Positions 2,632 through 49,360 of a DNA stretch of 64,000 nt are shown piece after piece (within the stretch, counting starts at the first letter, position 1; the number at the start of each line of letters is the position of its first letter). A program made the position numbers and the translations under genes. The notes beneath the pieces are model-generated. The model was not told where the DNA came from and ran no database searches. It was given only the letters and a program-made list of their open reading frames with translations. The DNA comes from Escherichia coli (GTDB lineage Bacteria; Pseudomonadota; Gammaproteobacteria; Enterobacterales; Enterobacteriaceae), in assembly GCF_030384885.1 (NCBI RefSeq), contig NZ_CP128613.1. One strand, given 5' to 3'.

Positions 2632-8183
<5,552 letters not shown>

Positions 8184-21810: not shown

Positions 21811-22449
21811 ATGCCCGGGCGCTTTGAACTAAAACCAACCCTGGAGAAAGTCTGGCACGCGCCGGACAATTTTCGCTTCATGGACCCGCTACCGCCGATG
21901 CATCGTCGGGGGATCATTATTGCCGCTATTGTATTGGTGGTCGGATTTCTACTCCCGTCTGATGATACGCCAAACGCGCCGGTGGTGACGCGTGAAGCAC
22001 AGTTAGATATTCAGTCGCAATCACAACCGCCGACAGAAGAACAGCTGCGGGCGCAATTAGTCACACCACAAAATGATCCTGATCAGGTGGCTCCGGTCGC
22101 TCCAGAACCGATACAGGAAGGCCAACCGGAAGAGCAGCCGCAAACCTCGCAAGTGCAACCTTTCCAGCCAGATAGCGGAATTGACAATCAATGGCGCTCT
22201 TACCGTGTCGAACCCGGTAAAACGATGGCGCAGCTGTTCCGCGACCACGGACTGCCCGCTACCGATGTCTATGCAATGGCGCAGGTAGAAGGCGCGGGTA
22301 AGCCGCTGAGTAATTTGCAAAACGGGCAGATGGTGAAAATCCGCCAGAATGCCAGCGGCGTGGTGACGGGCTTAACCATTGATACGGGGAATAATCAACA
22401 GGTCCTGTTTACCCGCCAGCCGGATGGGAGTTTTATTCGTGCGCGGTAG
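21811..22449 (+). CDS. ytfB: Cell-division protein YtfB (OapA-domain)
   Basis: Start set at [13 protein letters not shown] (212 aa); TM segment then Pro/Gln-rich linker; 3' end overlaps the convergent TetR gene. Confidence 0.88.
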
Positions 22450-23080
22450 ATGAAGGGTCAACCAAAAGCCAGCTAAGGATTGTCTCTTTGATGACCTTAC
22501 GCCTGGCTTCCAGTGCCTGCGGTGAAACCATACTGATGTGATAAACCAGGCCAAGCGTATGCTGGTTGATCAAATAATATCCTCCAAGAGCAGCAATATT
22601 AATATTCACCTGCAACGGGTCGATATCTGGCTTAAAAATATTGCGCCGTTTGCCTTCAGCTAATAATGACTCCATTAACTGTAAGTGTGCGTGGTTAATT
22701 TCTAAAAGGCGCTGTGATTTTGCATAATGCACCCCTTTACTCTGGTTTTCACTATGCACAATTTTTAAAAACCAGGGGTTAGCAATGTAATAATCCCAGG
22801 TGAAATCGATAATTTTCTCAATGGCTTTTTGTGGCGGAAGACCTGAGAAATCAAGGGATTTTTCTTTTTGCCGAATATCATTCCAGGTATATTCCAGCAC
22901 TTCGATAAATAAATTTTCTTTATTACCAAAGTGATGATAAACCGTCTGTTTACTGCACTCCGCGGCCTTGACGATATTATCGACTCTGGCCCCTTCGTAA
23001 CCATATTCGGCAAATTCATTAACCGCACATAACAACAGCTTTTCCTTCAGGCTTTGTACGTTGCTGGTATCAAGATACAT
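22433..23080 (-). CDS. TetR/AcrR-family transcriptional regulator
   Basis: N-terminal HTH ([28 protein letters not shown]) typical of TetR; ATG at 23080 preferred over the GTG at 23140 used by the ORF track; divergent from the downstream operon. Confidence 0.8.
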
Positions 23081-23202
23081 TCCGCTTCCCCACGTCTTCT
23101 TCGTGATGACTATCTTAACCCGATTTGTTAGAAGCTCCACTAAAATGGCTAAAAACTCGCAATTTCATCGGGTTATCAAATGCTCTGTGATCATTATCGC
23201 AT

Positions 23203-23224
23203 ATCAACCAACTAGATGGTTGAT
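23203..23224. promoter_or_regulatory. Candidate TetR operator (inverted repeat) in divergent promoter region
   Basis: atcaacca-actaga-tggttgat, 8-bp perfect arms, between the TetR gene and the SDR gene; inference. Confidence 0.35.
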
Positions 23225-23291
23225 CTTTCTTGCCACACATTGCAAGCTAATCGTCACTTAAGGAAATAATATTCAAAAAGAGGGTTATTGT

Positions 23292-24083
23292 ATGAAGTCA
23301 ACACGTCCTGTTGCTGTCATCACTGGAGCCGCACGTGGTATTGGAAAGGGCTGTGCACTGGAACTTGCGCGTGGCGGATTTAATCTGCTGATTAATGATC
23401 GTCCGGATGCCGACAGCGTAGAAAAATTACATGCCACACAACAAGAATGTCTGGCGGAAGGCGTGGAAGTGATTTGCTTCCCTGCTGATGTTGGCGATCT
23501 CTCCCTTCATGAAGAGATGCTCGACGCGGCGCAAAACCAGTGGGGACGTCTGGACTGTCTACTCAACAACGCAGGCATTTCAGTGAAAAAACGCGGTGAC
23601 CTCCTCGACCTCGAACCAGACAGCTTCGACCAAAACATTGCCATTAACACCCGTGCGCCGTTCTTCCTTGCTCAGGCATTCAGTAAGCGATTACTGGCAC
23701 AGCCGAAACCGGAAGCAGAACTGCCGCACCGCTCGATTATTTTTGTCAGTTCCATAAACGCCATCATGCTGGCGATGAATCGCGGCGAATATACCATTGC
23801 CAAAACTGCCGTCTCCGCCGCAGCTCGTCTGTTTGCCGCTCGCCTTTGCAATGAACAAATTGGCGTTTATGAAGTGCGCCCTGGCCTAATCAAAACCGAT
23901 ATGACCATTCCGGCAACGGCTTATTACGACGAACTGATTGCTAAGGGGTTAGTGCCGTGGGGACGTTGGGGTTATCCGGCTGATATTGCCTCAACGGTCC
24001 GCGCGATGGCGGAAGGCAAACTGATTTACACCTGTGGTCAGGCGGTCGCCATCGACGGCGGCTTAAGTATGCCGCGCTTCTGA
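23292..24083 (+). CDS. Short-chain dehydrogenase/reductase (SDR)
   Basis: TGAARGIG cofactor motif, NNAG, and Ser...Y-x3-K catalytic motif (YTIAK) read directly. Confidence 0.85.
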   Translation: MKSTRPVAVITGAARGIGKGCALELARGGFNLLINDRPDADSVEKLHATQQECLAEGVEVICFPADVGDLSLHEEMLDAAQNQWGRLDCLLNNAGISVKKRGDLLDLEPDSFDQNIAINTRAPFFLAQAFSKRLLAQPKPEAELPHRSIIFVSSINAIMLAMNRGEYTIAKTAVSAAARLFAARLCNEQIGVYEVRPGLIKTDMTIPATAYYDELIAKGLVPWGRWGYPADIASTVRAMAEGKLIYTCGQAVAIDGGLSMPRF

Positions 24084-24092
24084 GGCTGAATC

Positions 24093-24935
24093 ATGAGAGA
24101 TCTGTTACAACGCCCGGATTTATTCAGTATCAATACTGCGACACTGGGCTATAAAACGCCGCTACCTGCCATTATTGATGCCTGCGCCGCACGCGGTATT
24201 GGCGCGATTGCCCCCTGGCGCAGGGAGTTACAGGGTGAAGATCTCCAGCAAATCGCCCGCCAGCTTGCTGCCAGTAACATGAGCGTTTCCGGTTTGTGTC
24301 GTAGCACCTATTACACCGCGCCGACGCTGACGGAACGCAAACTGGCGATTGATGATAACCGCCGGGCGCTGGACGACGCCGCTGTACTGAACGCCGCCTG
24401 TTATATGCAGGTGGTTGGCGGTCTGCCAATGGGAACAAAAGATCTGTACGAAGCGCGGGAACAAGTGAAACAAGGGATTCGCCAGTTGCTGCCACATTCG
24501 AAAGATGTCGGCGTGCCAATTGCGCTGGAGCCGCTGCACCCGATGACAGCTGCCGATCGCTCTTGCCTGTGCACGTTACGTCAGGCGCTGGACTGGTGTG
24601 ATGAACTCGATCCCGATGGGGAGTTTGGCCTCGGCGTGGCGGTGGATGTTTATCACGTCTGGTGGGACCCGGATCTCGCCAGTCAGATCCTGCGTGCCGG
24701 AAAACGCATCCTCGCGTTTCATGTTTCCGACTGGCTGGTGCCAACCACCGATTTAGTCAATGACCGGGGAATGCCGGGAGATGGCGTAATCAATATTCCG
24801 TCTATTCGTCGCCAGGTAGAAAATGCCGGATTTAACGGTGCTGTGGAACTGGAAATTTTCTCACCGTACTGGTGGCAGCAAGATATTAACAGCACGTTGG
24901 ATATTAGCGTCGATCGCATCGCGCATTATTGCTAA
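24093..24935 (+). CDS. Sugar-phosphate isomerase/epimerase-like (xylose-isomerase-type TIM barrel) protein
   Basis: 280-aa ORF; family assignment by overall resemblance only (…AFHVSDW…), no database check. Confidence 0.55.
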   Translation: MRDLLQRPDLFSINTATLGYKTPLPAIIDACAARGIGAIAPWRRELQGEDLQQIARQLAASNMSVSGLCRSTYYTAPTLTERKLAIDDNRRALDDAAVLNAACYMQVVGGLPMGTKDLYEAREQVKQGIRQLLPHSKDVGVPIALEPLHPMTAADRSCLCTLRQALDWCDELDPDGEFGLGVAVDVYHVWWDPDLASQILRAGKRILAFHVSDWLVPTTDLVNDRGMPGDGVINIPSIRRQVENAGFNGAVELEIFSPYWWQQDINSTLDISVDRIAHYC

Positions 24936-24938
24936 GGA

Positions 24939-25721
24939 ATGATCATGAGTGACCAACCCGTTCTGTTCAGCAGAGCGGCGGCTTCCTGCCGCCTGACATT
25001 GAACCGTGAAGATAAATGTCATGCTATTAATGAAGAAATGATCGAATCTCTCGACCATTATTTAAATGAAATTGAAAACGACACCACATTACGATTAGTC
25101 GAATTAACGGCAACCGGCGATAAATTCTTTTGTGCAGGCGGCGATATTAAATCGTGGTCAGCCTATTCGCCATTAGATATGGGCAGAAAATGGATTAAAC
25201 GCGGCAATGACGTTTTTAATCGCCTGCGCAATTTACCTCAATTAACGGTTGCGAATCTCAACGGTCATACCATCGGCGGTGGTATTGAACTTGCCTTGTG
25301 CTGCGATATTCGTATTGCTCGCCCCGGCGCGAAATTCTCTAATCCGGAAGTAATGCTCGGCATGGTGCCTGGCTGGATGGGCATTGAACGCGTGCTTAAT
25401 CAGGTCGGTCCGGTGGTCGGTCGCCAGATGCTGATGCTGGGTAAACGCCTGACGGCGCAGGAAGCTCAGGCAGCGAATTTAATTGATGAAGTGGTAGAAA
25501 AAGAACAGGTGGAAAGCTGGATGGCGAATCAGTTAGCGCAGCTGGAAAAATGCGGTCCGGTGGCGCTCGCACATATCAAGCAACTGATTCTGGCTCTAGA
25601 AAATAAACATGCTGATTACCCGCACCAGTTACTGGCTGGATTAATGTCCGCCACTCAGGATTGCCAGCAGGCGACGCGCGCATTTGCCGAAAAAAGTAGC
25701 GTGAGCTTCCAAAATCAATAA
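24939..25721 (+). CDS. Enoyl-CoA hydratase/isomerase (crotonase family)
   Basis: Crotonase signatures FFCAGGDIKSW and GHTIGGGIELALCCDIRIA. Confidence 0.85.
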   Translation: MIMSDQPVLFSRAAASCRLTLNREDKCHAINEEMIESLDHYLNEIENDTTLRLVELTATGDKFFCAGGDIKSWSAYSPLDMGRKWIKRGNDVFNRLRNLPQLTVANLNGHTIGGGIELALCCDIRIARPGAKFSNPEVMLGMVPGWMGIERVLNQVGPVVGRQMLMLGKRLTAQEAQAANLIDEVVEKEQVESWMANQLAQLEKCGPVALAHIKQLILALENKHADYPHQLLAGLMSATQDCQQATRAFAEKSSVSFQNQ

Positions 25722-25730
25722 GGAAATTGT

Positions 25731-27272
25731 ATGCGTAAGATAACAACCGCCGAGACACTGGCGGCGCAAATTCAGGACGGTGCAACCATTGCCATTAGCG
25801 GTAATGGCGGCGGCATGGTGGAAGCGGACCATATTCTGGCTGCTATTGAAGCGCGTTTCCTGCAAACCGGACACCCGCGCGATCTGACATTAATCCACTC
25901 GCTGGGCATTGGCGATCGCGACTGCAAAGGCACTAACCGCTTCGCTCATGCAGATATGCTCAAACGCATCATTGCCGGACATTTTACCTGGTCGCCCAAG
26001 ATGCAGGATCTGGTGAAAAACAATGCTATTGAAGCCTACTGCTTCCCTGGTGGCGTAATTCAGGCACTGCTGCGGGAGATCGGTGCCGGACGTCCAGGGC
26101 TTTTTACCCACGTTGGACTGGGATCGTTTGTTGATCCGCGCAACGGCGGCGGTAAGTCGAACGCCAGCACCACTGAGGATCTGGTAGAACTGATTGAAAT
26201 CGACGGTGAAACCAAACTTCGTTATCGCCCTTTCAAAGTGGATTACGCGATTTTGCGTGGCACTTATGCCGATCCTCGAGGCAACGTCAGCCTTGAAGAA
26301 GAGGCGATTGATATGGATAGCTATTCCATGGCGCTGGCAGCACACAACAGCGGTGGCAAAGTGTTCGTACAGGTGCGCGATGTGCTGGAAGCTGGTGCCA
26401 TTGAACCACGCCGGGTCAAATTACCGGGCATTCTGGTTGATGGCATCGTTGAACACCGCGAACAACCGCAAACATATCTTGGCGGTTACGACCTGACCAT
26501 CAGCGGTCAGCACCGCCGTTTAAGTTCTAACGACGCTATTGAACTGGTTACTCATCCGGTGCGCCGCCTGATTGCCCGTCGGGCAGCACGCGAACTGGTG
26601 GCTGGCGCTTCAACCAACTTTGGCTTTGGCATTCCCGGCGGCATTCCTGGGGTTGCACTGCGCGAAGGCGTGCCTTATCAAAGTTTATGGCTGAGCGTCG
26701 AGCAAGGCGTGCATAACGGTATGATGCTGGATGATGCTCTGTTCGGCTGCGCCCGTAACGCCGATGCCATTATTCCATCACTCGATCAATTCGAATTCTA
26801 CAGTGGCGGAGGGATCGATATCACCTTCCTCGGCATGGGAGAGATGGATCAGCATGGTAACGTCAACGTCTCCCATCTCAATGGCAATCTCATTGGCCCC
26901 GGCGGATTTCTCGAAATTGCGCAAAACGCCCGTAAAGTGGTGTTCTGTGGCACGTTCGACGCCAAAGGTAGCAAGATTGATGTAACACCAGATGGCTTGC
27001 ATATCGCCCAGTCAGGTCAAATCCCTAAACTGGTTACCCAAGTGGAAAAAATCACTTTTAGCGCCGCCTACGCACAGCAAAGCGGTCAGGAAGTGTTGTA
27101 TATCACTGAACGTGCAGTATTCCAATTAACAGCAGAAGGCGTTGAATTAATTGAAATCGCACCAGGTGTGGAGATTGAGCGCGACATTCTGCCATATATG
27201 GCTTTCCGTCCAATTATCAATCAGCCACGCCTGATGGAAAGTAGCCTGTTTACGCCGATGGAGGATGCATGA
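25731..27272 (+). CDS. Family-I CoA-transferase (YdiF/acetate CoA-transferase-like, fused A/B subunits)
   Basis: 513-aa ORF; long stretches resemble E. coli YdiF as I recall it (…VGLGSFVDPRNGGGK…); 3' end overlaps the next gene (ATGA). Confidence 0.8.
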   Translation: MRKITTAETLAAQIQDGATIAISGNGGGMVEADHILAAIEARFLQTGHPRDLTLIHSLGIGDRDCKGTNRFAHADMLKRIIAGHFTWSPKMQDLVKNNAIEAYCFPGGVIQALLREIGAGRPGLFTHVGLGSFVDPRNGGGKSNASTTEDLVELIEIDGETKLRYRPFKVDYAILRGTYADPRGNVSLEEEAIDMDSYSMALAAHNSGGKVFVQVRDVLEAGAIEPRRVKLPGILVDGIVEHREQPQTYLGGYDLTISGQHRRLSSNDAIELVTHPVRRLIARRAARELVAGASTNFGFGIPGGIPGVALREGVPYQSLWLSVEQGVHNGMMLDDALFGCARNADAIIPSLDQFEFYSGGGIDITFLGMGEMDQHGNVNVSHLNGNLIGPGGFLEIAQNARKVVFCGTFDAKGSKIDVTPDGLHIAQSGQIPKLVTQVEKITFSAAYAQQSGQEVLYITERAVFQLTAEGVELIEIAPGVEIERDILPYMAFRPIINQPRLMESSLFTPMEDA

Positions 27273-29350
27273 GTCAGCTTGATGACACCCTCCTTGATGC
27301 GCTGACGCATGTCACTTTCCCGAAGGGTTTTGCACAGGCAGAACCCGCATGGGTTGTCACGGTAGACGGTGTTGATTACCCACTCTGGCAAACAGATGCC
27401 CTGGTAGTCGGCAGTGGTGCAGCCGGGCTGCGTGCAGCTGTGGAACTTAAACGCCGCCAGCAAAATGTGTTGATCGCCACTGCCGGGTTATATATGGGGA
27501 CGTCGGCATGTTCTGGTTCCGATAAACAGACACTGTTTACCGCCGCTACCGCGGGCAATGGCGACAACTTCACCAAACTGGCAGAGGCACTGGCGAGCGG
27601 TGGAGCGATGGATCACGACACCGCTTATGTCGAAGCGGTAGGTTCTCTGCACACTCTTGGCGGGTTGCAATATCTTGGTCTGGAATTACCGGAAGATCGC
27701 TATGGCGCGATTCTTCGTTATCAAACCGACCATGACGAAGCCGGGCGTGCAACCTCGTGTGGGCCGCGTACCTCAAGGTTAATGGTGAAAGTGCTGTTGG
27801 AAGAAGTGCAGCGCCTCGCCATTCCAGTGTTGACCAGTGCAACAGTGATTAAACTGCTGCATCAGCGTGACGAAAACGGCGAAGACTGCGTGGCGGGGGC
27901 AATCCTCGCGACCGGTCATCGCGCCCATAACCCATGGGGGCTGGCAATTGTGACTGCGCCCAATGTGGTGCTGGCAACAGGAGGGCCTGGCGAGCTTTAT
28001 CGAGACAGTGTGTACCCACATAAATGCTTCGGCTCGCTGGGGCTGGCGCTGGAAGAAGGTCTGACGCTAACCAATCTGACCGAAAGCCAGTTTGGTATTG
28101 GCACGCCACGCAACACCTTTCCGTGGAATTTGTCCGGCACCTATGTACAGGTGATCCCATATATCTATTCCGTAGATGCTGAGGGCAACGAGTATAACTT
28201 CCTCACGGATTACTATCGAACTACCCAGGAACTGGCTTCAAACATCTTCCGTAAAGGCTATCAGTGGCCGTTTCACGCCACACGAGTGATGGATTTTGGC
28301 TCCAGCTTGTTAGATATGGCAGTAGCGCAAGAGCAGCAATCAGGGCGTCAGGTATTTATGGATTTCAATCGCAATCCTGAACCTGTGCCGGGTGACATGC
28401 CGTTCTCATTAGATCGACTGGACGACGACGTTCGCGCGTATCTGGAAAATAACGACGCTCTGGCACCATCGCCCATCGAACGACTGCAACGAATGAATCC
28501 GCTGTCTATCTCGCTGTATAAGATGCACGGTTACGATCTCACCACGCAGCCATTGCAGTTTGCCATGAATAATCAGCATATGAATGGCGGCATTGAAGTG
28601 GATATCTGGGGGCAAACCTCCCTGCCCGGCTGTTTCGCCGTGGGGGAAGTTGCTGGCACACACGGCGTTACCCGACCTGGCGGTGCGGCGCTGAATGCCG
28701 GACAGGTATTTGCCGTGCGACTGGCACGTTTTATTGGTTGCACACAAAAGCGGTCCGTTGAGGATGATATCGCGCAGCTGGTAGCCTCACCTCTGCATAC
28801 AATCAGAGAAGTTATCGCTCAGGCACTGGCAAACGAGAACGGAATGACGCTGGCAACGGTGAAAGAAAAAATCCAGGCGCGAATGTCTGATTACGCGGGA
28901 TTTATTTGCCATGCTGATAAAGTTCGTCACGCCGCCCGTGACGCCATGCTGTTAAATGAATTTGCGCAGCAACATGGTCTAACTATCAACCACGCCGGTG
29001 AAATTGCCGAGCTATTTATGTGGCGGCATATGGCATTAACATCCGCTGCGGTGTTAAGCCAGCTATCACATTATATTGATGCTGGCGGTGGTAGTCGTGG
29101 AGCACGGATGATTATTGATCCACAAGGAGAATATCTTCCACAAACTCGTCGCGGCGCAATCGAAGATTGGCGTTTTCGCTCTGAACAAGCTGAAGATAAA
29201 AATCACAGACTAACTCTCTCCTTTTCACAAGGTTTATTTATTAATGAAATTAAGTTCTTGAGAAACTTACCGCATATTAAAGGTATTTACTTTGAGAAGA
29301 ATTGGCCTGATTTTCTTAACGGAACAATTTATCAGACACGGCATGAATAA
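27269..29350 (+). CDS. FAD-dependent oxidoreductase (fumarate reductase/succinate dehydrogenase/L-aspartate oxidase-like flavoprotein)
   Basis: Dinucleotide-binding motif VVGSGAAGLRAA, HMNGG and GEVAGTHGVTRPGGAALN motifs of the FAD_binding_2 family; 693 aa with an AT-rich C-terminal tail. Confidence 0.75.
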   Translation: MSQLDDTLLDALTHVTFPKGFAQAEPAWVVTVDGVDYPLWQTDALVVGSGAAGLRAAVELKRRQQNVLIATAGLYMGTSACSGSDKQTLFTAATAGNGDNFTKLAEALASGGAMDHDTAYVEAVGSLHTLGGLQYLGLELPEDRYGAILRYQTDHDEAGRATSCGPRTSRLMVKVLLEEVQRLAIPVLTSATVIKLLHQRDENGEDCVAGAILATGHRAHNPWGLAIVTAPNVVLATGGPGELYRDSVYPHKCFGSLGLALEEGLTLTNLTESQFGIGTPRNTFPWNLSGTYVQVIPYIYSVDAEGNEYNFLTDYYRTTQELASNIFRKGYQWPFHATRVMDFGSSLLDMAVAQEQQSGRQVFMDFNRNPEPVPGDMPFSLDRLDDDVRAYLENNDALAPSPIERLQRMNPLSISLYKMHGYDLTTQPLQFAMNNQHMNGGIEVDIWGQTSLPGCFAVGEVAGTHGVTRPGGAALNAGQVFAVRLARFIGCTQKRSVEDDIAQLVASPLHTIREVIAQALANENGMTLATVKEKIQARMSDYAGFICHADKVRHAARDAMLLNEFAQQHGLTINHAGEIAELFMWRHMALTSAAVLSQLSHYIDAGGGSRGARMIIDPQGEYLPQTRRGAIEDWRFRSEQAEDKNHRLTLSFSQGLFINEIKFLRNLPHIKGIYFEKNWPDFLNGTIYQTRHE

Positions 29351-29370
29351 TATTGCAAAGGTTAATCACT

Positions 29371-29847
29371 ATGCGAAATATAATCAGATCTATTAATTCA
29401 TTGCTTTCCACGTTGAACATTACCATTTTGGCAATTATTGTGATGTGCGTTACATGGCAAGTAGTAGCACGATTTATCTTTAAAAGCCCCAGCATTTTTA
29501 CAGATGAACTTAGTCGTTTACTATTTATTTGTCTTGGACTTTTTGGTGGTGCTTATACTGCCGGACAAAACCGACATCTGGCCATTGATCTTCTGCCAAT
29601 GATGCTAAAAGGAAAATCCCGACGTTATTTATTCTTATGTATTCAGGCCATTGTTATTCTTTTTGCCTCTATCATTATGGTTTATGGTGGCGGGTTATTA
29701 ACACTGGACACATTTGATTCAGGGCAAACTTCTCCGGCTTTAGGCTGGCAGATGGGATATATTTACATGAGCATTCCAATAAGTGGCATCCTTATTATTA
29801 TATACACCATAGATACAGTTTTAACCGAACTTAAACAACCACTCTAA
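29371..29847 (+). CDS. TRAP transporter small permease (DctQ-like)
   Basis: About 158 aa with 4 predicted TM helices; ATG at 29371 with upstream aaagg preferred over the TTG at 29353; directly upstream of DctM. Confidence 0.75.
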   Translation: MRNIIRSINSLLSTLNITILAIIVMCVTWQVVARFIFKSPSIFTDELSRLLFICLGLFGGAYTAGQNRHLAIDLLPMMLKGKSRRYLFLCIQAIVILFASIIMVYGGGLLTLDTFDSGQTSPALGWQMGYIYMSIPISGILIIIYTIDTVLTELKQPL

Positions 29848-29869
29848 AATAAGTAGGGATGGAGAAAAC

Positions 29870-31171
29870 ATGGATTACTGGTTACCGATCATTGTGTTAT
29901 TTGGTTCTTTCTTTTTTATGTTGGCATTAGGTGTTCCTATTGTCTATGCTATTGGTTTATCAACACTGGCATCAATTACTACACAACTCGATTTCAACTC
30001 AGCATTGAGTGTGGTTTCACAAAAGTTAGCCTCCGGGTTAGATAGTTTTACGTTGTTGGCAATCCCATTTTTTATCTTGTCTGGCAACATTATGAATCAT
30101 GGAGGAATAGCGCGACGATTAATCAACTTTGCCCGTATTCTCGGCGGTCGTCTGCCAGGCTCACTTGCTCACTGTAATATTCTTGCCAATATGCTGTTCG
30201 GGGCAATTTCTGGTTCAGCTGTTGCTTCGGCGGCTGCGATGGGCGGCGTCATGCATCCACAGCAGGTTAAAGAGGGTTACGACCCGGCATTCAGTACCGC
30301 TGTTAACGTTGCCTCTGCACCGACAGGTTTACTTATTCCACCCAGTAATACGTTAATTGTCTTTTCACTGGTCAGTGGTGGTACTTCTATTGCCGCACTG
30401 TTCCTGGCAGGATATGTCCCGGGAATTTTATTGGGCCTGGCGCTGATGACTGTGGCTGGTATTATCGCGGTACGCCGGGGTTATCCAAAACCAGAACGTC
30501 CGACTTTGCGCCAGGCTGGAGTGGCAATATGGATGGCGATCCCCAGTATTTTCCTGATTGTATTAATTATGGGTGGTGTACTAAGCGGTATTTTTACCCC
30601 GACAGAAGCATCTGCAATTGCGGTAATTTATACCCTTTTCCTTGCACTGGTTCTTTATCGTGAAATATCAGTTAAAGATTTACCTAAGATATTTCTGGAG
30701 TCCGTCATTACCACTGCAATTGTCTTGTTGTTAATTGGTTCTTCAATGGGAATGTCATGGGCAATGTCAAACGCTGACGTTCCCTTCCTGATTCTCGATT
30801 TGCTTAACACTATTTCTGATAATCCAATAATAATCCTGCTTATTATCAATATTATTCTGTTGATTATCGGCACATTTATGGATATGACACCGGCAGTACT
30901 GATTTTTACGCCGATATTTTTACCCGTTGTCACCGAACTGGGCATGGACCCGATTCACTTTGGTATTGTCATGGTACTGAACATGTGTATCGGTATTTGT
31001 ACTCCGCCTGTAGGCAGTGTGTTATTTGTCGGTTGTAGTGTATCTAAATTACCGATTAATAAAATTATCAAACCTATGCTGCCCTTCTATGCCGTGATGG
31101 TATTGGTGCTGGCTATGGTGACCTATATTCCGCAAATCAGTATGGCATTGCCAAGAGCACTGGGCTACTGA
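29870..31171 (+). CDS. TRAP transporter large permease (DctM-like)
   Basis: 433-aa polytopic membrane protein; size and hydrophobicity pattern typical of DctM. Confidence 0.85.
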   Translation: MDYWLPIIVLFGSFFFMLALGVPIVYAIGLSTLASITTQLDFNSALSVVSQKLASGLDSFTLLAIPFFILSGNIMNHGGIARRLINFARILGGRLPGSLAHCNILANMLFGAISGSAVASAAAMGGVMHPQQVKEGYDPAFSTAVNVASAPTGLLIPPSNTLIVFSLVSGGTSIAALFLAGYVPGILLGLALMTVAGIIAVRRGYPKPERPTLRQAGVAIWMAIPSIFLIVLIMGGVLSGIFTPTEASAIAVIYTLFLALVLYREISVKDLPKIFLESVITTAIVLLLIGSSMGMSWAMSNADVPFLILDLLNTISDNPIIILLIINIILLIIGTFMDMTPAVLIFTPIFLPVVTELGMDPIHFGIVMVLNMCIGICTPPVGSVLFVGCSVSKLPINKIIKPMLPFYAVMVLVLAMVTYIPQISMALPRALGY

Positions 31172-31223
31172 TGCGCATTCACTGGCGGCTCCTGCCGCCA
31201 TATTTATTAGAAAAGGAACATCT

Positions 31224-32195
31224 ATGAAAATAAAAGTATCCGCTGGCATTATCGGTGCTGTTCTTATGTTATCTGCAGGCCAGTCCTGGGCAGTAACATT
31301 AAAACTTAGCCATAATCAGGATAAATCTCATCCTGTTCATAAAGCGATGGAGTTCTTTGCGAAAAAGAGCAAAGAGTACTCTAACGGTGATATTACTATT
31401 CGTATTTATCCAAATGGAACATTGGGTACTCAACGAGAAACAATGGAGCTGATTCGTTCTGGTGCTATTCCGCTGGTAAAAACCAATGCGGCGGAGATGG
31501 AAGCCTTCGAGAGTTCGTATAAAATATTTAGCCTGCCTTATTTGTTCCGCGATCGTGATCATTATTATCAGGTCATGCAAGGCGATATCGGAAGGAAAAT
31601 CCTCGACTCAACGAAAAACAAAGGTTATTTCGGTCTGACTTTCTATGATGGAGGCGCCCGCAGCTTCTACGGCAATAAACCGGTGCTGAAACCAGACGAT
31701 CTCAAAGGAATGAAAGTTCGTGTCCAGCCAAGCCCAGGGGCAGTTGAGATGATCAAAGTCATGGGAGGTAACCCAACACCGCTGGATTATGGAGAGTTGT
31801 ACACAGCATTGCAGCAAGGTGTGGTTGATATGGCGGAAAACAGTGTGATGGCGCTGACCACCATGCGCCACGGTGAAGTAGCAAAATCCTTCAGCCTTGA
31901 CGAACACACTATGGTTCCTGATGTGGTTCTAATGAGCAATGCTTCGTTTGATAAGCTTAGCCCGGAAAATCAGGCAGCTATATTAAAAGCAGCTAAAGAA
32001 TCAATGAGCTACATGAAAGACTTGTGGAGCGAGGAAGAGAAAAAAGAATTCGCTAAACTGGATCAAATGGGCGTGAAAGTCTACAAGGTTGATAAAGCAC
32101 CGTTTATCGAGAAAGTGCAGCCGATGTACGCAGCCTTTGCTAAGGAAAACCCTGCTCTCGCCCCAATGCTAACTGATATTCAGGCGACTAAGTAA
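31224..32195 (+). CDS. TRAP transporter substrate-binding protein (DctP-like), periplasmic
   Basis: 323 aa, signal peptide MKIKVSAGIIGAVLMLSAGQSWA; DctP-size soluble protein adjacent to DctQM. Confidence 0.8.
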   Translation: MKIKVSAGIIGAVLMLSAGQSWAVTLKLSHNQDKSHPVHKAMEFFAKKSKEYSNGDITIRIYPNGTLGTQRETMELIRSGAIPLVKTNAAEMEAFESSYKIFSLPYLFRDRDHYYQVMQGDIGRKILDSTKNKGYFGLTFYDGGARSFYGNKPVLKPDDLKGMKVRVQPSPGAVEMIKVMGGNPTPLDYGELYTALQQGVVDMAENSVMALTTMRHGEVAKSFSLDEHTMVPDVVLMSNASFDKLSPENQAAILKAAKESMSYMKDLWSEEEKKEFAKLDQMGVKVYKVDKAPFIEKVQPMYAAFAKENPALAPMLTDIQATK

Positions 32196-46935: not shown

Positions 46936-47595
46936 TTAACCAATAATATGAAGTGATGTCAGTGGGATATCAACACCCAGTGCGCGCGAAAATAACCACT
47001 CCGGCTCGCCGAGATCGTTAAAAGATTCCTCACCATTTAACAGCAAATATTCACAGGTATCTTCGGTCACCTGCCGTTCATAGCCCATGGTAAAATTATG
47101 CACTTCCCATTTGGCGTGGTTTTGATTTTCAACTTTTTCCAGCATATAGACGGGTTCGATATTTCCCGGTTCTTCACTGTTAAAAAATCGCTGCCAGCGT
47201 TTTTCCTGCCAGTTTAATGTCATTGCCCCCATCGCTTTGGCGTTGATCGCTTCGCGCCAGTGGCTCTCTTTGCTGATACCGTAGCTCTCTTCATAGACAA
47301 AGAGCTTTATATCATCAATGTCATCAATATCTTCGCCGCCGGTGGTATTGATTTGCAGAAATTCATCGCCCGAAGTGTAGTAGCGGAAAATCTGACTACC
47401 GCCGCCCAGATCGATGTGGCTGACAGCGGCTACCGTAAATTCTTCACCCGGCAGCGCAATCAGCAATTCATCTTCCAGCAAACGAAACGCTAACGTGTCG
47501 AGCGTAAAGCCGCTATTGAGATGAAGTCCCAGTGGGCCACGTGCGATTGCAGGTTTATCATCCTTACCAAACAGACGCTTGAAAAAACTTGTCAT
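46936..47595 (-). CDS. yjfK: DUF2491 protein YjfK
   Basis: 219-aa ORF; its ATG overlaps the stop of the upstream RCK-domain ORF (ATGA). Confidence 0.88.
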   Translation of the reverse strand: MTSFFKRLFGKDDKPAIARGPLGLHLNSGFTLDTLAFRLLEDELLIALPGEEFTVAAVSHIDLGGGSQIFRYYTSGDEFLQINTTGGEDIDDIDDIKLFVYEESYGISKESHWREAINAKAMGAMTLNWQEKRWQRFFNSEEPGNIEPVYMLEKVENQNHAKWEVHNFTMGYERQVTEDTCEYLLLNGEESFNDLGEPEWLFSRALGVDIPLTSLHIIG

Positions 47596-48347
47596 ATGCT
47601 TCCCTCAATGTCCTGCCATGCCACTTCTTCAGCCAAAATACGGTTATTGCCAATAAGATGCAGCCACATACCGCCTTTAACTTCCGTTGCAATGACTGGA
47701 TTCAGTTCCATTCCCCTACCATTTTTACAACTGCTTATTCCCAGGACGGTGGCATCATGATGAAGTTTCATATAATGCATCAATGCGCCATAACGCATTG
47801 AGGTAACCCGTTCAGGAATCGGTAAAACAAACCCCGTATCCCCCAGCATTGGATTCATAATCGATGCCACTGATTGAGATGAACCGGGATCTTGTATTGA
47901 ACGGGAAAGTTGTTCTGCTGAAATATTTCGCACTATTTCAATACGTTGACAATGAACCTCTAATAAACGAGCGTAGCGTTCATCTTCCAGATAAGCGACG
48001 ATATGGCATCTTTCAGGAATAAAATCCGCCAGGGATAGTGCGGTCGTGAACGTCTGCTCATCTGTTTGCGAAAAGATGATGACACTTTGGCAATTTGCCA
48101 GTCCCATGCGGGTATGTTCATGCGGATCATTAAAATTACTAATACGAATGAAATCGACCCAATTATTTCCAGGCATCGGATGTTGAATATCATCCCGCTC
48201 ACACAAAAGTACCCGGCCAAATGCTCTTCGGGAATCAAACAACAATAATGAAATCATCTTTTCAGTCTGATGCCCGCGCCATCCAATGACCAGCATATGG
48301 TTGCGCAAATTGCTGTAGTCGCCCATTCCCGTCATTCCTTTCGCCAA
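47592..48347 (-). CDS. RCK/TrkA-like cytoplasmic domain protein (C-terminal half of a Kch/MthK-like K+ channel)
   Basis: Rossmann-like start …HMLVIGWRGHQTEKMISLL… and later segments resemble TrkA-N/TrkA-C by eye; ORF track starts at TTG 48347, but in-frame ATGs at 48335 and 48326 follow an AAAGGA Shine-Dalgarno-like sequence; same frame as the pore ORF. Confidence 0.6.
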   Translation of the reverse strand: MAKGMTGMGDYSNLRNHMLVIGWRGHQTEKMISLLLFDSRRAFGRVLLCERDDIQHPMPGNNWVDFIRISNFNDPHEHTRMGLANCQSVIIFSQTDEQTFTTALSLADFIPERCHIVAYLEDERYARLLEVHCQRIEIVRNISAEQLSRSIQDPGSSQSVASIMNPMLGDTGFVLPIPERVTSMRYGALMHYMKLHHDATVLGISSCKNGRGMELNPVIATEVKGGMWLHLIGNNRILAEEVAWQDIEGSI

Positions 48348-48353
48348 TATGTC

Positions 48354-48662
48354 TTACACTAATGCAATGACTTTTCCCATTAAAGCGCCAAATAAACCAA
48401 CACTCACAGGAATCTGCCAGAGCGCTGTGAACAGACGTCCCCCCACCGTTTGGGGTGTGATATCACCAAACCCCAGCGTTGATCCCACAACCGAGCAGTA
48501 ATAAATAAAATTACTAAGTTGTCCTACCAACGCCTCTTCATGCAACGCAGTTAACACCAGATAACAAAACAGATACTGTCCTGTAAATAATCCAGTCAAT
48601 GCCGGCCAGGTAAGCCTGGAAAGGTGACGTCGGCAGGTTTTAATGATCCATGAGAAGAACAT
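48354..48662 (-). CDS. Two-TM potassium-channel pore domain protein (selectivity filter TLGFGD)
   Basis: 102 aa: hydrophobic M1, pore helix + GSTLGFGDITP (T-x-G-[YF]-G-D K+ filter), hydrophobic M2; ATG overlaps yjfJ stop (TAATG); ends at a TAA in frame with the RCK ORF. Confidence 0.65.
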   Translation of the reverse strand: MFFSWIIKTCRRHLSRLTWPALTGLFTGQYLFCYLVLTALHEEALVGQLSNFIYYCSVVGSTLGFGDITPQTVGGRLFTALWQIPVSVGLFGALMGKVIALV

Positions 48663-49360
48663 TACTCGCCCTGTTGGCGTTGCAGTCTTGCTAATACATC
48701 CTGGGCGCTACTTTTGTTGCTACCGCCAATTCCGGCTTCCGCCAGTTTTTCATCAAGATCGCGACCATCTGCCACTTTTTCCAGCTGTACGGCAGCATCC
48801 AGGCGAGCTTGACGTTCGGCCTGACGCGTTTGCAGACGCTTTAAGGATTCTGCCGCTGTCGAAACGCTGGAAGATGCGCCAACAGTAGAGGTCGTTACGG
48901 CCTGTTGTGCACGCTGCATGGCTTCAGTAGCTTTAACGACTTCCATTTGTTGCTCAAACTGAGCGATACGCTGCGCTGTCGCTGTAACTGCTTTTTCCAC
49001 GCCATCACGAGAGACTTCCAGATTCGACAACACTTGCTCTTCAGCGGTAATAAGATTCTCAAGGCGCGCGATTTCTTCAGCAACTTCGTTAATCAACGAC
49101 GGATTAACGTTCTTGCTTAACGCTTCCAGCGCACGAGCTTCCAGACTGGCTTTGCGCTCACGTAAATCTTTCAGCTTATCGTGACTTAATTTCACCCGCG
49201 CCAGCAGATCAACGCGAGATTTTCCGGCTTTATCGAGTTCAGCTTTAGCGTCACGAATATGCTGTTCCAGCATGCGCACACCCTGGGTTTCTTCAATGGA
49301 TTCTTCCGCCTGAGAGATAAACGATTTCCCCAGCGTAAATAAACTTTTTAAAATTCCCAT
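48662..49360 (-). CDS. yjfJ: PspA/IM30-family protein YjfJ
   Basis: 232-aa coiled-coil-rich ORF; synteny after yjfI. Confidence 0.9.
   Translation of the reverse strand: MGILKSLFTLGKSFISQAEESIEETQGVRMLEQHIRDAKAELDKAGKSRVDLLARVKLSHDKLKDLRERKASLEARALEALSKNVNPSLINEVAEEIARLENLITAEEQVLSNLEVSRDGVEKAVTATAQRIAQFEQQMEVVKATEAMQRAQQAVTTSTVGASSSVSTAAESLKRLQTRQAERQARLDAAVQLEKVADGRDLDEKLAEAGIGGSNKSSAQDVLARLQRQQGE

What the first reader, a model, noticed from the sequence alone, without database searches (positions are those of the whole stretch)
48326..48360. Pore and RCK halves are in the same reading frame, separated by a single TAA
Seen in sequence: the minus-strand frame reads ...GKVIALV-TAA-D-I-L-A-K-G-M-T-G-M-G-D-Y..., so the two ORFs are one continuous frame interrupted by one stop codon. 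Three explanations are possible: (a) a recent nonsense mutation inactivating a single-chain Kch/MthK-like channel; (b) a sequencing or assembly error; (c) a genuine two-polypeptide arrangement. An AAAGGA Shine-Dalgarno-like sequence precedes in-frame ATGs just after the stop, and in Kch/MthK the soluble RCK domain is known to be co-expressed from an internal start.
Basis: partly seen in the sequence, partly recalled or inferred. Interest (0 to 1): 0.6.

Follow-up and report, generated by a model that had tools for sequence, protein, structure and literature searches.

The report
Nonsense mutation splitting a potassium channel
One base change (CAA to TAA) has cut an otherwise intact, rarely carried E. 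coli potassium-channel gene in two; this is an ordinary, recent, strain-level gene inactivation and not a new two-part channel design.

Summary
On the minus strand, a 102-codon pore ORF (48662..48354) and the RCK-like ORF (to 47592) share one frame, interrupted only by TAA at 48356..48354.

The window is E. coli, 7 SNPs in 64 kb from strain 2013C-4282. One of those SNPs (48356) turns Gln103 CAA into TAA.

All 18 complete E. coli genomes that carry the gene (18 of 5,426) have CAA and annotate a single 356-aa "potassium channel family protein". All 25 full-length homologues from other Enterobacteriaceae are single chains with Gln (23) or Arg (2) there. The two-gene reading is therefore rejected.

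The same TAA sits in six read-derived contigs from six separate sequencing runs, on a nearly identical background. A one-off sequencing error is therefore very unlikely.

Profile and fold comparisons confirm an MthK-like 2-TM pore plus RCK protein. It is not Kch.

Codon 113, 30 nt after the stop, is ATG or TTG in all 14 intact loci read and is usually preceded by AAAGGA. It lies two positions from MthK's internal-start Met107. A free RCK product is plausible but untested.

The likely outcome is loss of ligand-gated function. Interest is low.

The parts
47592..48662 (-). Interrupted gene for a 356-aa MthK-like potassium channel (2-TM pore plus C-terminal RCK domain). It is the orthologue of WP_000466338.1.
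   Evidence: It differs at 1 of 1,071 bases from the intact CDS of strain 2013C-4282. Pfam Ion_trans_2 matches residues 42-102 at E = 3.4e-10. MthK is the best match by profile and by fold.
48354..48356 (-). Premature stop TAA at codon 103. The derived base is window 48356 (A on the + strand, T on the coding strand). The ancestral codon is CAA (Gln).
   Evidence: Searches identify the single base. All 18 complete genomes carry the non-stop base. Codon 103 is CAA or CAG in 14 intact loci. Position 103 is Gln in 23 of 25 proteins and Arg in 2.
48354..48662 (-). Pore-only ORF of 102 aa plus stop: M1 helix, pore helix, filter and most of the inner helix.
   Evidence: In the AF2 model the helices are 19-39, 49-63 and 73-112. 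The exact 102-aa product was called in Logan contigs.
48462..48479 (-). Selectivity filter codons T62-L-G-F-G-D67.
   Evidence: G64, F65, G66 and D67 are invariant in the 25-member alignment. They align to MthK TVGYGD.
48336..48341 (-). AAAGGA, a Shine-Dalgarno-like hexamer that also encodes Lys108-Gly109. It lies 9 nt upstream of ATG113.
   Evidence: A strict SD-like core plus a start-capable codon recurs at this position in 11 of 14 intact loci, and at no other position across the family.
47592..48326 (-). RCK-domain ORF from ATG113 (244 aa plus stop). It is the candidate free-RCK product. Its TGA overlaps the yjfK ATG (ATGA).
   Evidence: Gene callers chose this start in the Logan contigs. 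The region folds as a Rossmann-like beta/alpha domain. It matches MthK RCK domain structures.
48662..49360 (-). yjfJ (PspA/IM30 family). Its TAA overlaps the channel ATG (TAATG).
46936..47595 (-). yjfK (DUF2491). Its start overlaps the channel stop.

Best explanation
This is a natively single-chain, MthK-like potassium channel gene (2-TM pore fused to one RCK domain). It sits as an accessory member inside the yjfI-yjfJ(PspA family)-[channel]-yjfK-yjfL-yjfM-yjfC operon of a small minority of E. coli. In the lineage sampled by this window it has suffered a recent C>T transition that turns Gln103, at the cytoplasmic end of the inner helix, into a TAA stop.

Shown:
- The mutation is derived.
- It is real, not a one-off error.
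- It is confined to a near-clonal background.
- It interrupts an otherwise untouched gene.

Inferred consequences:
- Translation ends after a 102-aa pore module. By analogy with the isolated MthK pore (His11-Arg101), this module could still form a tetramer but would stay almost always closed, because nothing pulls the gate open.
- Ribosomes may restart 30 nt downstream at ATG113 (AAAGGA lies 9 nt upstream). That would make a free 244-aa RCK protein and keep translation flowing into the overlapping yjfK start.
- The net effect is loss of ligand-gated K+ conductance, that is, an early-stage pseudogene.
For: - The window differs from NZ_CP027579.1 (strain 2013C-4282) at 7 positions in 64,000. Within the gene the only difference is 48356, giving CAA>TAA at codon 103.
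- All 18 complete E. coli genomes with the gene carry the non-stop base and annotate a single 1,071-bp CDS.
- 25 full-length homologues of 355-362 aa from Salmonella, Citrobacter, Enterobacter, Atlantibacter, Buttiauxella, Scandinavium and others have Gln (23) or Arg (2) at position 103. Codon 103 is CAA or CAG in 14 intact loci.
- The same TAA in the same context occurs in six Logan contigs from six runs (SRR35948513, SRR34489103, SRR35967224, SRR34938331, SRR30938853, SRR12517544). Four are 100% identical to the window, one has 1 mismatch in 9,458 bases, and one has 2 mismatches in 1,270 bases.
- The intact gene is under purifying selection: the window compared with strain RMDEC465 shows 6 synonymous changes and 1 conservative change besides the stop.
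- The architecture is MthK-like. The profile search gives MthK E = 3e-7 over residues 5-259. Foldseek's top hit is full-length MthK at E = 5.5e-14, followed by MthK RCK domains, Slo1 and GsuK.
- Q103 aligns to MthK Ile99. The isolated MthK pore His11-Arg101 is a stable tetramer with extremely low open probability (PMC2154359).
- The restart site is plausible. Codon 113 is ATG (9) or TTG (5) in 14 of 14 intact loci, whereas TTG makes up 0.17 of Leu codons in these genes. An SD-like core accompanies it in 11 of 14. It lies two profile positions from MthK Met107, which is MthK's documented internal start (PMC9440719).
Against: - No expression data exist for either fragment, so the pore-only and free-RCK products and their fates are inferences by analogy with MthK.
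- The six runs are independent sequencing experiments, but they could come from few isolates, or even from repeated sequencing of one strain. I could not see sample metadata.
- The downstream half carries no second lesion. That is expected for a very recent mutation, but it equally fits a split that is still functional.
- AAAGGA is explained by conserved Lys-Gly codons. GGA is also the usual codon at Gly96, so nucleotide-level selection for a ribosome-binding site is not demonstrated.
Confidence: 0.88

Rival explanations
1. The TAA is a sequencing or assembly error in this window, and the real genome has CAA.
For: It is a single-base difference from a near-identical complete genome, and no complete RefSeq genome has it.
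Against: The identical TAA context is present in six contigs assembled from raw reads of six different runs, with accessions spanning several years. All sit on the same haplotype as the window. A transition in non-repetitive sequence is not a typical systematic error.
Confidence: 0.03
2. Two separate genes (pore subunit plus soluble RCK subunit) are the native architecture of this locus, as in the KtrB/KtrA or TrkH/TrkA systems.
For: Split pore/RCK systems do exist in bacteria (established knowledge; KtrA and TrkA are discussed in PMC2920069). A start codon with an SD-like motif follows the stop.
Against: All 18 complete E. coli carriers, all 25 full-length homologues and all 14 intact loci read at DNA level have a sense codon and a single ORF. 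The 244-aa homologue P0043 is a contig-edge artefact, because its gene starts 13 nt from the contig end. The exact intact protein is on at least 1,000 contigs, against 7 for the 102-aa product.
Confidence: 0.01
3. The mutation is real but not inactivating. The pore fragment and a re-initiated free RCK protein assemble non-covalently into a still-regulated channel, so the allele is a viable 'split channel' and not a pseudogene.
For: MthK normally incorporates free RCK subunits made from Met107 (PMC9440719). This family keeps a start-capable codon at the equivalent place in 14 of 14 loci. The allele was recovered from several runs. The RCK ORF is undamaged.
Against: In MthK the gate is opened through the covalent linker between the inner helix and the tethered RCK domains, and the untethered pore has very low open probability (PMC2154359). 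The stop removes exactly that link. The allele is rare and near-clonal, so there is no sign of long-term retention.
Confidence: 0.08

Closest known systems
MthK (Methanothermobacter Ca2+-gated K+ channel; PDB 1LNQ, 6OLY)
   Same: - Same architecture: a 2-TM pore with a TxGxGD filter, a long inner helix and one C-terminal RCK domain.
- It is the best hit by profile (E = 3e-7) and by fold (E = 5.5e-14).
- There is a start-capable codon two positions from MthK Met107.
- MthK Glu210 and Glu212 ('EAERY') align with the conserved 'EDERY' (E226, E228) of this family.
   Different: - Identity is only about 16-19%.
- The position equivalent to MthK Asp184 is Phe197, so the Ca2+ site is not fully conserved and the ligand is unknown.
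- This gene is embedded in a PspA-family/polyamine operon of Enterobacteriaceae.
- In this window it is truncated at the pore/RCK boundary.
E. coli Kch (NCBIfam PRK10537)
   Same: It is a K+ channel with a C-terminal RCK/KTN domain and a proposed internal start (PMC2920069).
   Different: Kch has six TM helices. The NCBIfam score is 34 bits against a cut-off of 425, so this protein is not a Kch orthologue. Removing the internal start of Kch did not change its function (Kuo et al. 2003, as cited in PMC2920069).
[quoted passage not shown]
   Same: The gene neighbourhood is the same: DUF2170 (YjfI), PspA/IM30 (YjfJ), the channel, DUF2491, DUF350, DUF1190 and a GSP-synthase-like ligase.
   Different: That paper describes the intact gene class. 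The window carries a nonsense allele of it.
Isolated MthK pore (His11-Arg101, obtained by trypsin digestion)
   Same: The 102-aa product would end at the position aligned to about MthK residue 98, which is almost the same boundary.
   Different: The MthK fragment was made by proteolysis in vitro. Here the boundary is set by a genomic stop codon. The stability and assembly of the E. coli fragment are untested.

Membership tests
Tetrameric K+ channel pore (Pfam Ion_trans_2, PF07885) | Significant match to the pore-domain profile | tested here: met
   Residues 42-102 match at E = 3.4e-10. PF07885 is precomputed on nearly all homologues.
Tetrameric K+ channel pore (Pfam Ion_trans_2, PF07885) | Selectivity-filter signature T-x-G-[YF]-G-D | tested here: met
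   The filter is T62-L-G-F-G-D67. G64, F65, G66 and D67 are invariant in 25 sequences.
RCK/KTN domain (Pfam TrkA_N, PF02254) | Significant sequence match to TrkA_N | tested here: inconclusive
   Only a partial, sub-threshold hit: residues 180-235, E = 0.039. It is 'faint' on one homologue and listed as PF02254 on one other.
RCK/KTN domain (Pfam TrkA_N, PF02254) | Rossmann-like beta/alpha fold that superposes on solved RCK domains | tested here: met
   The AF2 model has mean pLDDT 76 with alternating strands and helices over residues 122-245. Foldseek matches isolated MthK RCK domains (2aef, 4l75, 3rbx) at E of about 1e-10 and TM-score on the target of 0.55-0.57.
RCK/KTN domain (Pfam TrkA_N, PF02254) | GxGxxG dinucleotide-binding motif (KTN subtype) | tested here: not met
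   The sequence is G127-W-R-G130-H-Q-T. Like MthK's GWSEST, this is not a canonical nucleotide-binding loop.
MthK-type channel | 2-TM pore fused to a single RCK domain in one chain | tested here: met
   This is met for the intact orthologues. In the window the chain is broken by TAA.
MthK-type channel | Ca2+-site residues D184, E210 and E212 | tested here: inconclusive
   E210 and E212 align with conserved E226 and E228. D184 aligns with F197. The alignment has low posterior probability in places.
MthK-type channel | Soluble RCK co-expressed from an internal start | not testable with these tools
   Sequence is only compatible with it: codon 113 is ATG or TTG in 14 of 14 loci and an SD-like core is present in 11 of 14. 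Protein-level evidence is needed.
E. coli Kch (NCBIfam NF007828 / PRK10537 equivalog) | Score above the curated cut-off | tested here: not met
   34.4 bits against a cut-off of 425.
Pseudogene by nonsense mutation | In-frame stop at a codon that is a sense codon in all orthologues, with the rest of the gene colinear | tested here: met
Pseudogene by nonsense mutation | Loss of function of the product | not testable with these tools
   Inferred only from the behaviour of the isolated MthK pore (PMC2154359).

The most novel reading that the evidence does not exclude
This channel family natively makes free RCK subunits from a conserved internal start at codon 113 (ATG or TTG), as MthK does from Met107. 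The Q103* allele is then a naturally occurring 'split' channel in which an untethered pore and free RCK subunits still assemble into a partly functional or differently regulated K+ conduit within the YjfJ (PspA-family) envelope-stress operon.
Probability: 0.08. Interest if true: 0.45.

Novelty: already known. Interest (0 to 1): 0.12.

Why it matters
It matters little. The practical points are these:

- **Annotation:** the two ORFs should be annotated as one interrupted gene (a pseudogene or nonsense allele of WP_000466338.1), not as two genes.
- **Gene turnover:** this adds one more example of decay of a channel gene that 5,408 of 5,426 complete E. coli genomes have already lost.
- **Family-level observation:** a start-capable codon is conserved at the MthK-Met107-equivalent position. 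This gives a cheap, testable hypothesis about how the gating ring of this uncharacterised enterobacterial channel is assembled. The natural Q103* strain would be a ready-made control for that experiment.

Tried and rejected
- **P0043 as an independent split.** This 244-aa Enterobacter-like protein starts at the Met113 equivalent, but its contig begins 13 nt upstream, so it is an artefact.
- **L010 (ENA) as a seventh TAA contig.** The contig ends at window 48357, one base before the stop, and sits on a different haplotype, so it does not show the stop.
- **GGA at Gly109 as evidence for a selected ribosome-binding site.** GGA is used in 12 of 14 loci against a 0.27 background. Gly96 is also mostly GGA, so this signal is not convincing.
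- **My recollection that the RCK-less MthK pore is constitutively open.** The paper says the opposite: its open probability is extremely low. I changed the predicted phenotype from 'leak' to 'shut'.
- **Kch membership.** Rejected on the NCBIfam score.
- **Programmed read-through or recoding.** The stop is TAA in a TAAG context, and every relative has a plain Gln codon there.
- **P0009 (103 aa), seen in the cluster listing.** It is a C-terminal partial sequence, not another truncation allele.

Full report
**1. Observation**

The minus strand of the window reads ...GGA AAA GTC ATT GCA TTA GTG TAA GAC ATA TTG GCG AAA GGA ATG ACG GGA ATG GGC GAC TAC....

The ORF list gives a 102-aa ORF at 48662..48354 and, in the same frame, an ORF running to 47592. 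That second ORF is 251 aa from TTG, 247 aa from ATG110 or 244 aa from ATG113. One search places the features:
- The stop is at 48356..48354, in a TAAG context.
- AAAGGA is at 48341..48336.
- The two in-frame ATGs are at 48335 and 48326.

**2. Where the window comes from and what the neighbours are**

The window is E. coli. Over all 64,000 bases it differs from NZ_CP027579.1 (strain 2013C-4282, human stool, USA) at only 7 positions.

On the minus strand the locus reads rnr, rlmB, yjfI (DUF2170), yjfJ (PspA/IM30), the channel, yjfK (DUF2491), yjfL (DUF350), yjfM (DUF1190), yjfC (glutathionylspermidine-synthase-like) and aidB. The channel ATG overlaps the yjfJ stop (TAATG), and its TGA overlaps the yjfK start (ATGA). 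The same overlaps recur in most other species. The gene is therefore an integral, translationally coupled member of the operon.

**3. The stop is a single derived base change**

Within the 1,071-bp gene, the only difference from strain 2013C-4282 is window 48356, which changes codon 103 from CAA (Gln) to TAA.
- The gene is present in only 18 of 5,426 complete E. coli genomes.
- Every record lists it as 'potassium channel family protein' under the match, and the two records read in full annotate one uninterrupted CDS.
- A 71-base probe centred on the stop matches all 18 with exactly one mismatch, so none of them has the TAA.
- A more distant carrier, strain RMDEC465, differs from the window by six synonymous changes and one conservative change besides the stop. 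That is the signature of purifying selection on the intact gene.

**4. Native architecture across the family**

A search of the large protein collection found 25 full-length relatives of 355-362 aa. They come from Salmonella, Citrobacter, Enterobacter, Atlantibacter, Buttiauxella, Scandinavium, Dryocola and a strain labelled 'Serratia' microhaemolytica.
- In their alignment, position 103 is Gln in 23 and Arg in 2, and never a stop.
- At DNA level, codon 103 is CAA or CAG in 14 intact loci from E. coli and eight or more other species.
- The shorter family members are contig-edge partials or frameshifted copies. None is a split at this site.

The result is clearly negative, so the single chain is the native form.

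**5. Real allele or error?**

The exact 102-aa and 244-aa products are on record. Six Logan contigs, assembled from the raw reads of six different runs, contain GTG TAA GAC in the same context. The runs are SRR35948513, SRR34489103, SRR35967224, SRR34938331, SRR30938853 and SRR12517544.
- Four contigs are 100% identical to the window.
- One has 1 mismatch in 9,458 bases.
- One has 2 mismatches in 1,270 bases.

A seventh contig (ENA, L010) merely ends one base before the stop and is on another haplotype, so I do not count it.

The allele is therefore real, and it marks a near-clonal sublineage closely related to strain 2013C-4282. It is rare among carriers: the intact protein of identical sequence is on at least 1,000 contigs. 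I could not see sample metadata, so the number of independent isolates is unknown.

**6. What the protein is**

Sequence evidence:
- Pfam finds Ion_trans_2 at residues 42-102 (E = 3.4e-10) and only a sub-threshold TrkA_N fragment (E = 0.039).
- A profile built from the 25 homologues hits MthK best among all solved structures (E = 3e-7). The alignment covers residues 5-259 against MthK 3-245, that is, both the pore and the first RCK lobe.

Structure evidence:
- The AlphaFold model has mean pLDDT 76. It shows M1 (19-39), a pore helix, the filter, a long inner helix (73-112) and then an alternating beta/alpha domain.
- Foldseek against the PDB returns full-length MthK first (E = 5.5e-14), then isolated MthK RCK domains, Slo1/BK and GsuK.

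The description 'pore plus RCK, MthK-like' is therefore supported. It is not Kch: the NCBIfam PRK10537 score is 34 bits against a cut-off of 425.

In the profile alignment, MthK Glu210 and Glu212 ('EAERY') match the conserved 'EDERY' (E226, E228), while Asp184 matches Phe197. A divalent-cation site is thus possible but not established.

**7. Consequences of the stop (inferred)**

Q103 aligns with MthK Ile99. The isolated MthK pore, His11-Arg101, is a very stable tetramer with extremely low open probability, because the gate needs the pull of the attached gating ring (PMC2154359). The 102-aa product is therefore most likely an essentially shut, unregulated pore if it is stable at all.

Downstream, ATG113 lies 30 nt after the T of TAA, with AAAGGA 9 nt upstream. 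This is a favourable geometry for termination and re-initiation. A restart would yield a free 244-aa RCK protein and would also keep ribosomes reaching the ATGA junction with yjfK, limiting polarity. None of this is shown experimentally.

**8. The internal-start idea**

MthK makes four of its eight RCK subunits from internal Met107 (PMC9440719). For E. coli Kch, removing the putative internal start had no effect (Kuo et al. 2003, cited in PMC2920069).

In the profile alignment, MthK Met107 falls at position 111, between Met110 and Met113 of this protein. At the protein level Met113 is not conserved, being Leu in 7 of 25.

At DNA level the picture is more suggestive:
- The five Leu113 loci I could read all use TTG, whereas TTG accounts for 0.17 of Leu codons in these genes. 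Codon 113 is therefore start-capable in 14 of 14 intact loci.
- It is the only position in the gene where an SD-like core and a start-capable codon coincide across the family, in 11 of 14 loci.

Two caveats apply. The five TTG cases represent perhaps two independent lineages. AAAGGA is also simply the codons of conserved Lys108-Gly109, and GGA is equally common at Gly96. I rate a native internal start as suggestive only.

**9. Wider context**

E. coli K-12 lacks the gene, and so do the other 5,408 complete genomes without a match. In K-12, a 50-bp spacer containing a hairpin (GCCAGCCT...AGGCTGGC) separates yjfJ from yjfK.

Frameshifted or fused copies occur in other lineages: P0040, P0045 from Enterobacter hormaechei, and P0047 from Salmonella. 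The gene is evidently dispensable and decays repeatedly. The TAA allele fits that pattern.

**10. Verdict**

- Interpretation (a), a recent nonsense mutation of a single-chain MthK-like channel, is supported at about 0.88 confidence.
- Interpretation (b), a sequencing error, and interpretation (c), a native split, are rejected.
- A still-functional split channel is not excluded, at about 0.08.

This is an ordinary strain-level pseudogenisation of an annotated gene family that has already been described, so interest is low.

Noticed in passing
window 47592-48662; L012 (K-12) 4753-4802: The channel gene is absent from 5,408 of 5,426 complete E. coli genomes. In K-12 a 50-bp spacer with a GCCAGCCT...AGGCTGGC hairpin replaces it between yjfJ and yjfK. 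The start of yjfK is only 87% identical between the window and K-12, against 96% for the end of yjfJ. Carriers therefore hold a distinct haplotype of this region.
   Followed up: partly
window 48324-48326 (codon 113) and the equivalent codon in L014-L022 and L032-L034: Codon 113 is ATG or TTG in all 14 intact loci read. All five Leu113 cases use TTG, and an SD-like core lies about 9 nt upstream in 11 of 14. The site is two profile positions from MthK's internal-start Met107.
   Followed up: partly
window 47977-47991 (codons E226-Y230): The family-conserved 'EDERY' aligns with MthK 'EAERY', which contains the Ca2+ ligands Glu210 and Glu212. The position equivalent to MthK Asp184 is Phe197. This hints at a divalent-cation or other charged ligand site.
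   Followed up: no
L010 (ENA ERZ27234138), which ends at window 48357: This metagenome contig is on a different haplotype (13 mismatches in 797 bases) and stops exactly one base before the polymorphic position. Its product therefore mimics the 102-aa protein without showing the stop. This may be chance or a graph break at a variant.
   Followed up: partly
L009 (SRR30938853), window 48716 and 48746: This TAA-bearing contig carries, in its last 36 bases within yjfJ, two alleles shared with strain SCPM-O-B-8794 (L014) and not with the window. This could be a chimeric contig end or a recombinant background.
   Followed up: no
P0040, P0045 and P0047 (homologues from other lineages): There are independent frameshifted or fused copies of the channel gene: one Citrobacter-like, one in Enterobacter hormaechei on a 4.7-Mb contig, and a Salmonella channel-yjfK fusion. 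This suggests recurrent decay of the gene.
   Followed up: no
window 6076, 6329, 11611, 16435, 31472, 40225: These are the other six differences from strain 2013C-4282: tamB P112 (synonymous), tamB T28N, ytfJ K122 (synonymous), an intergenic change between ytfH and qorB, TRAP substrate-binding protein P83 (synonymous) and ulaG N329 (synonymous). Of all seven SNPs, six are transitions.
   Followed up: partly
window ~22433-32195: An annotated cluster lies between ytfB and rplI. It comprises a TetR regulator, 3-ketoacyl-ACP reductase, sugar-phosphate isomerase, enoyl-CoA hydratase, CoA transferase, FAD oxidoreductase and a three-component TRAP transporter (annotation of 2013C-4282). I did not check its distribution in other E. 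coli.
   Followed up: no
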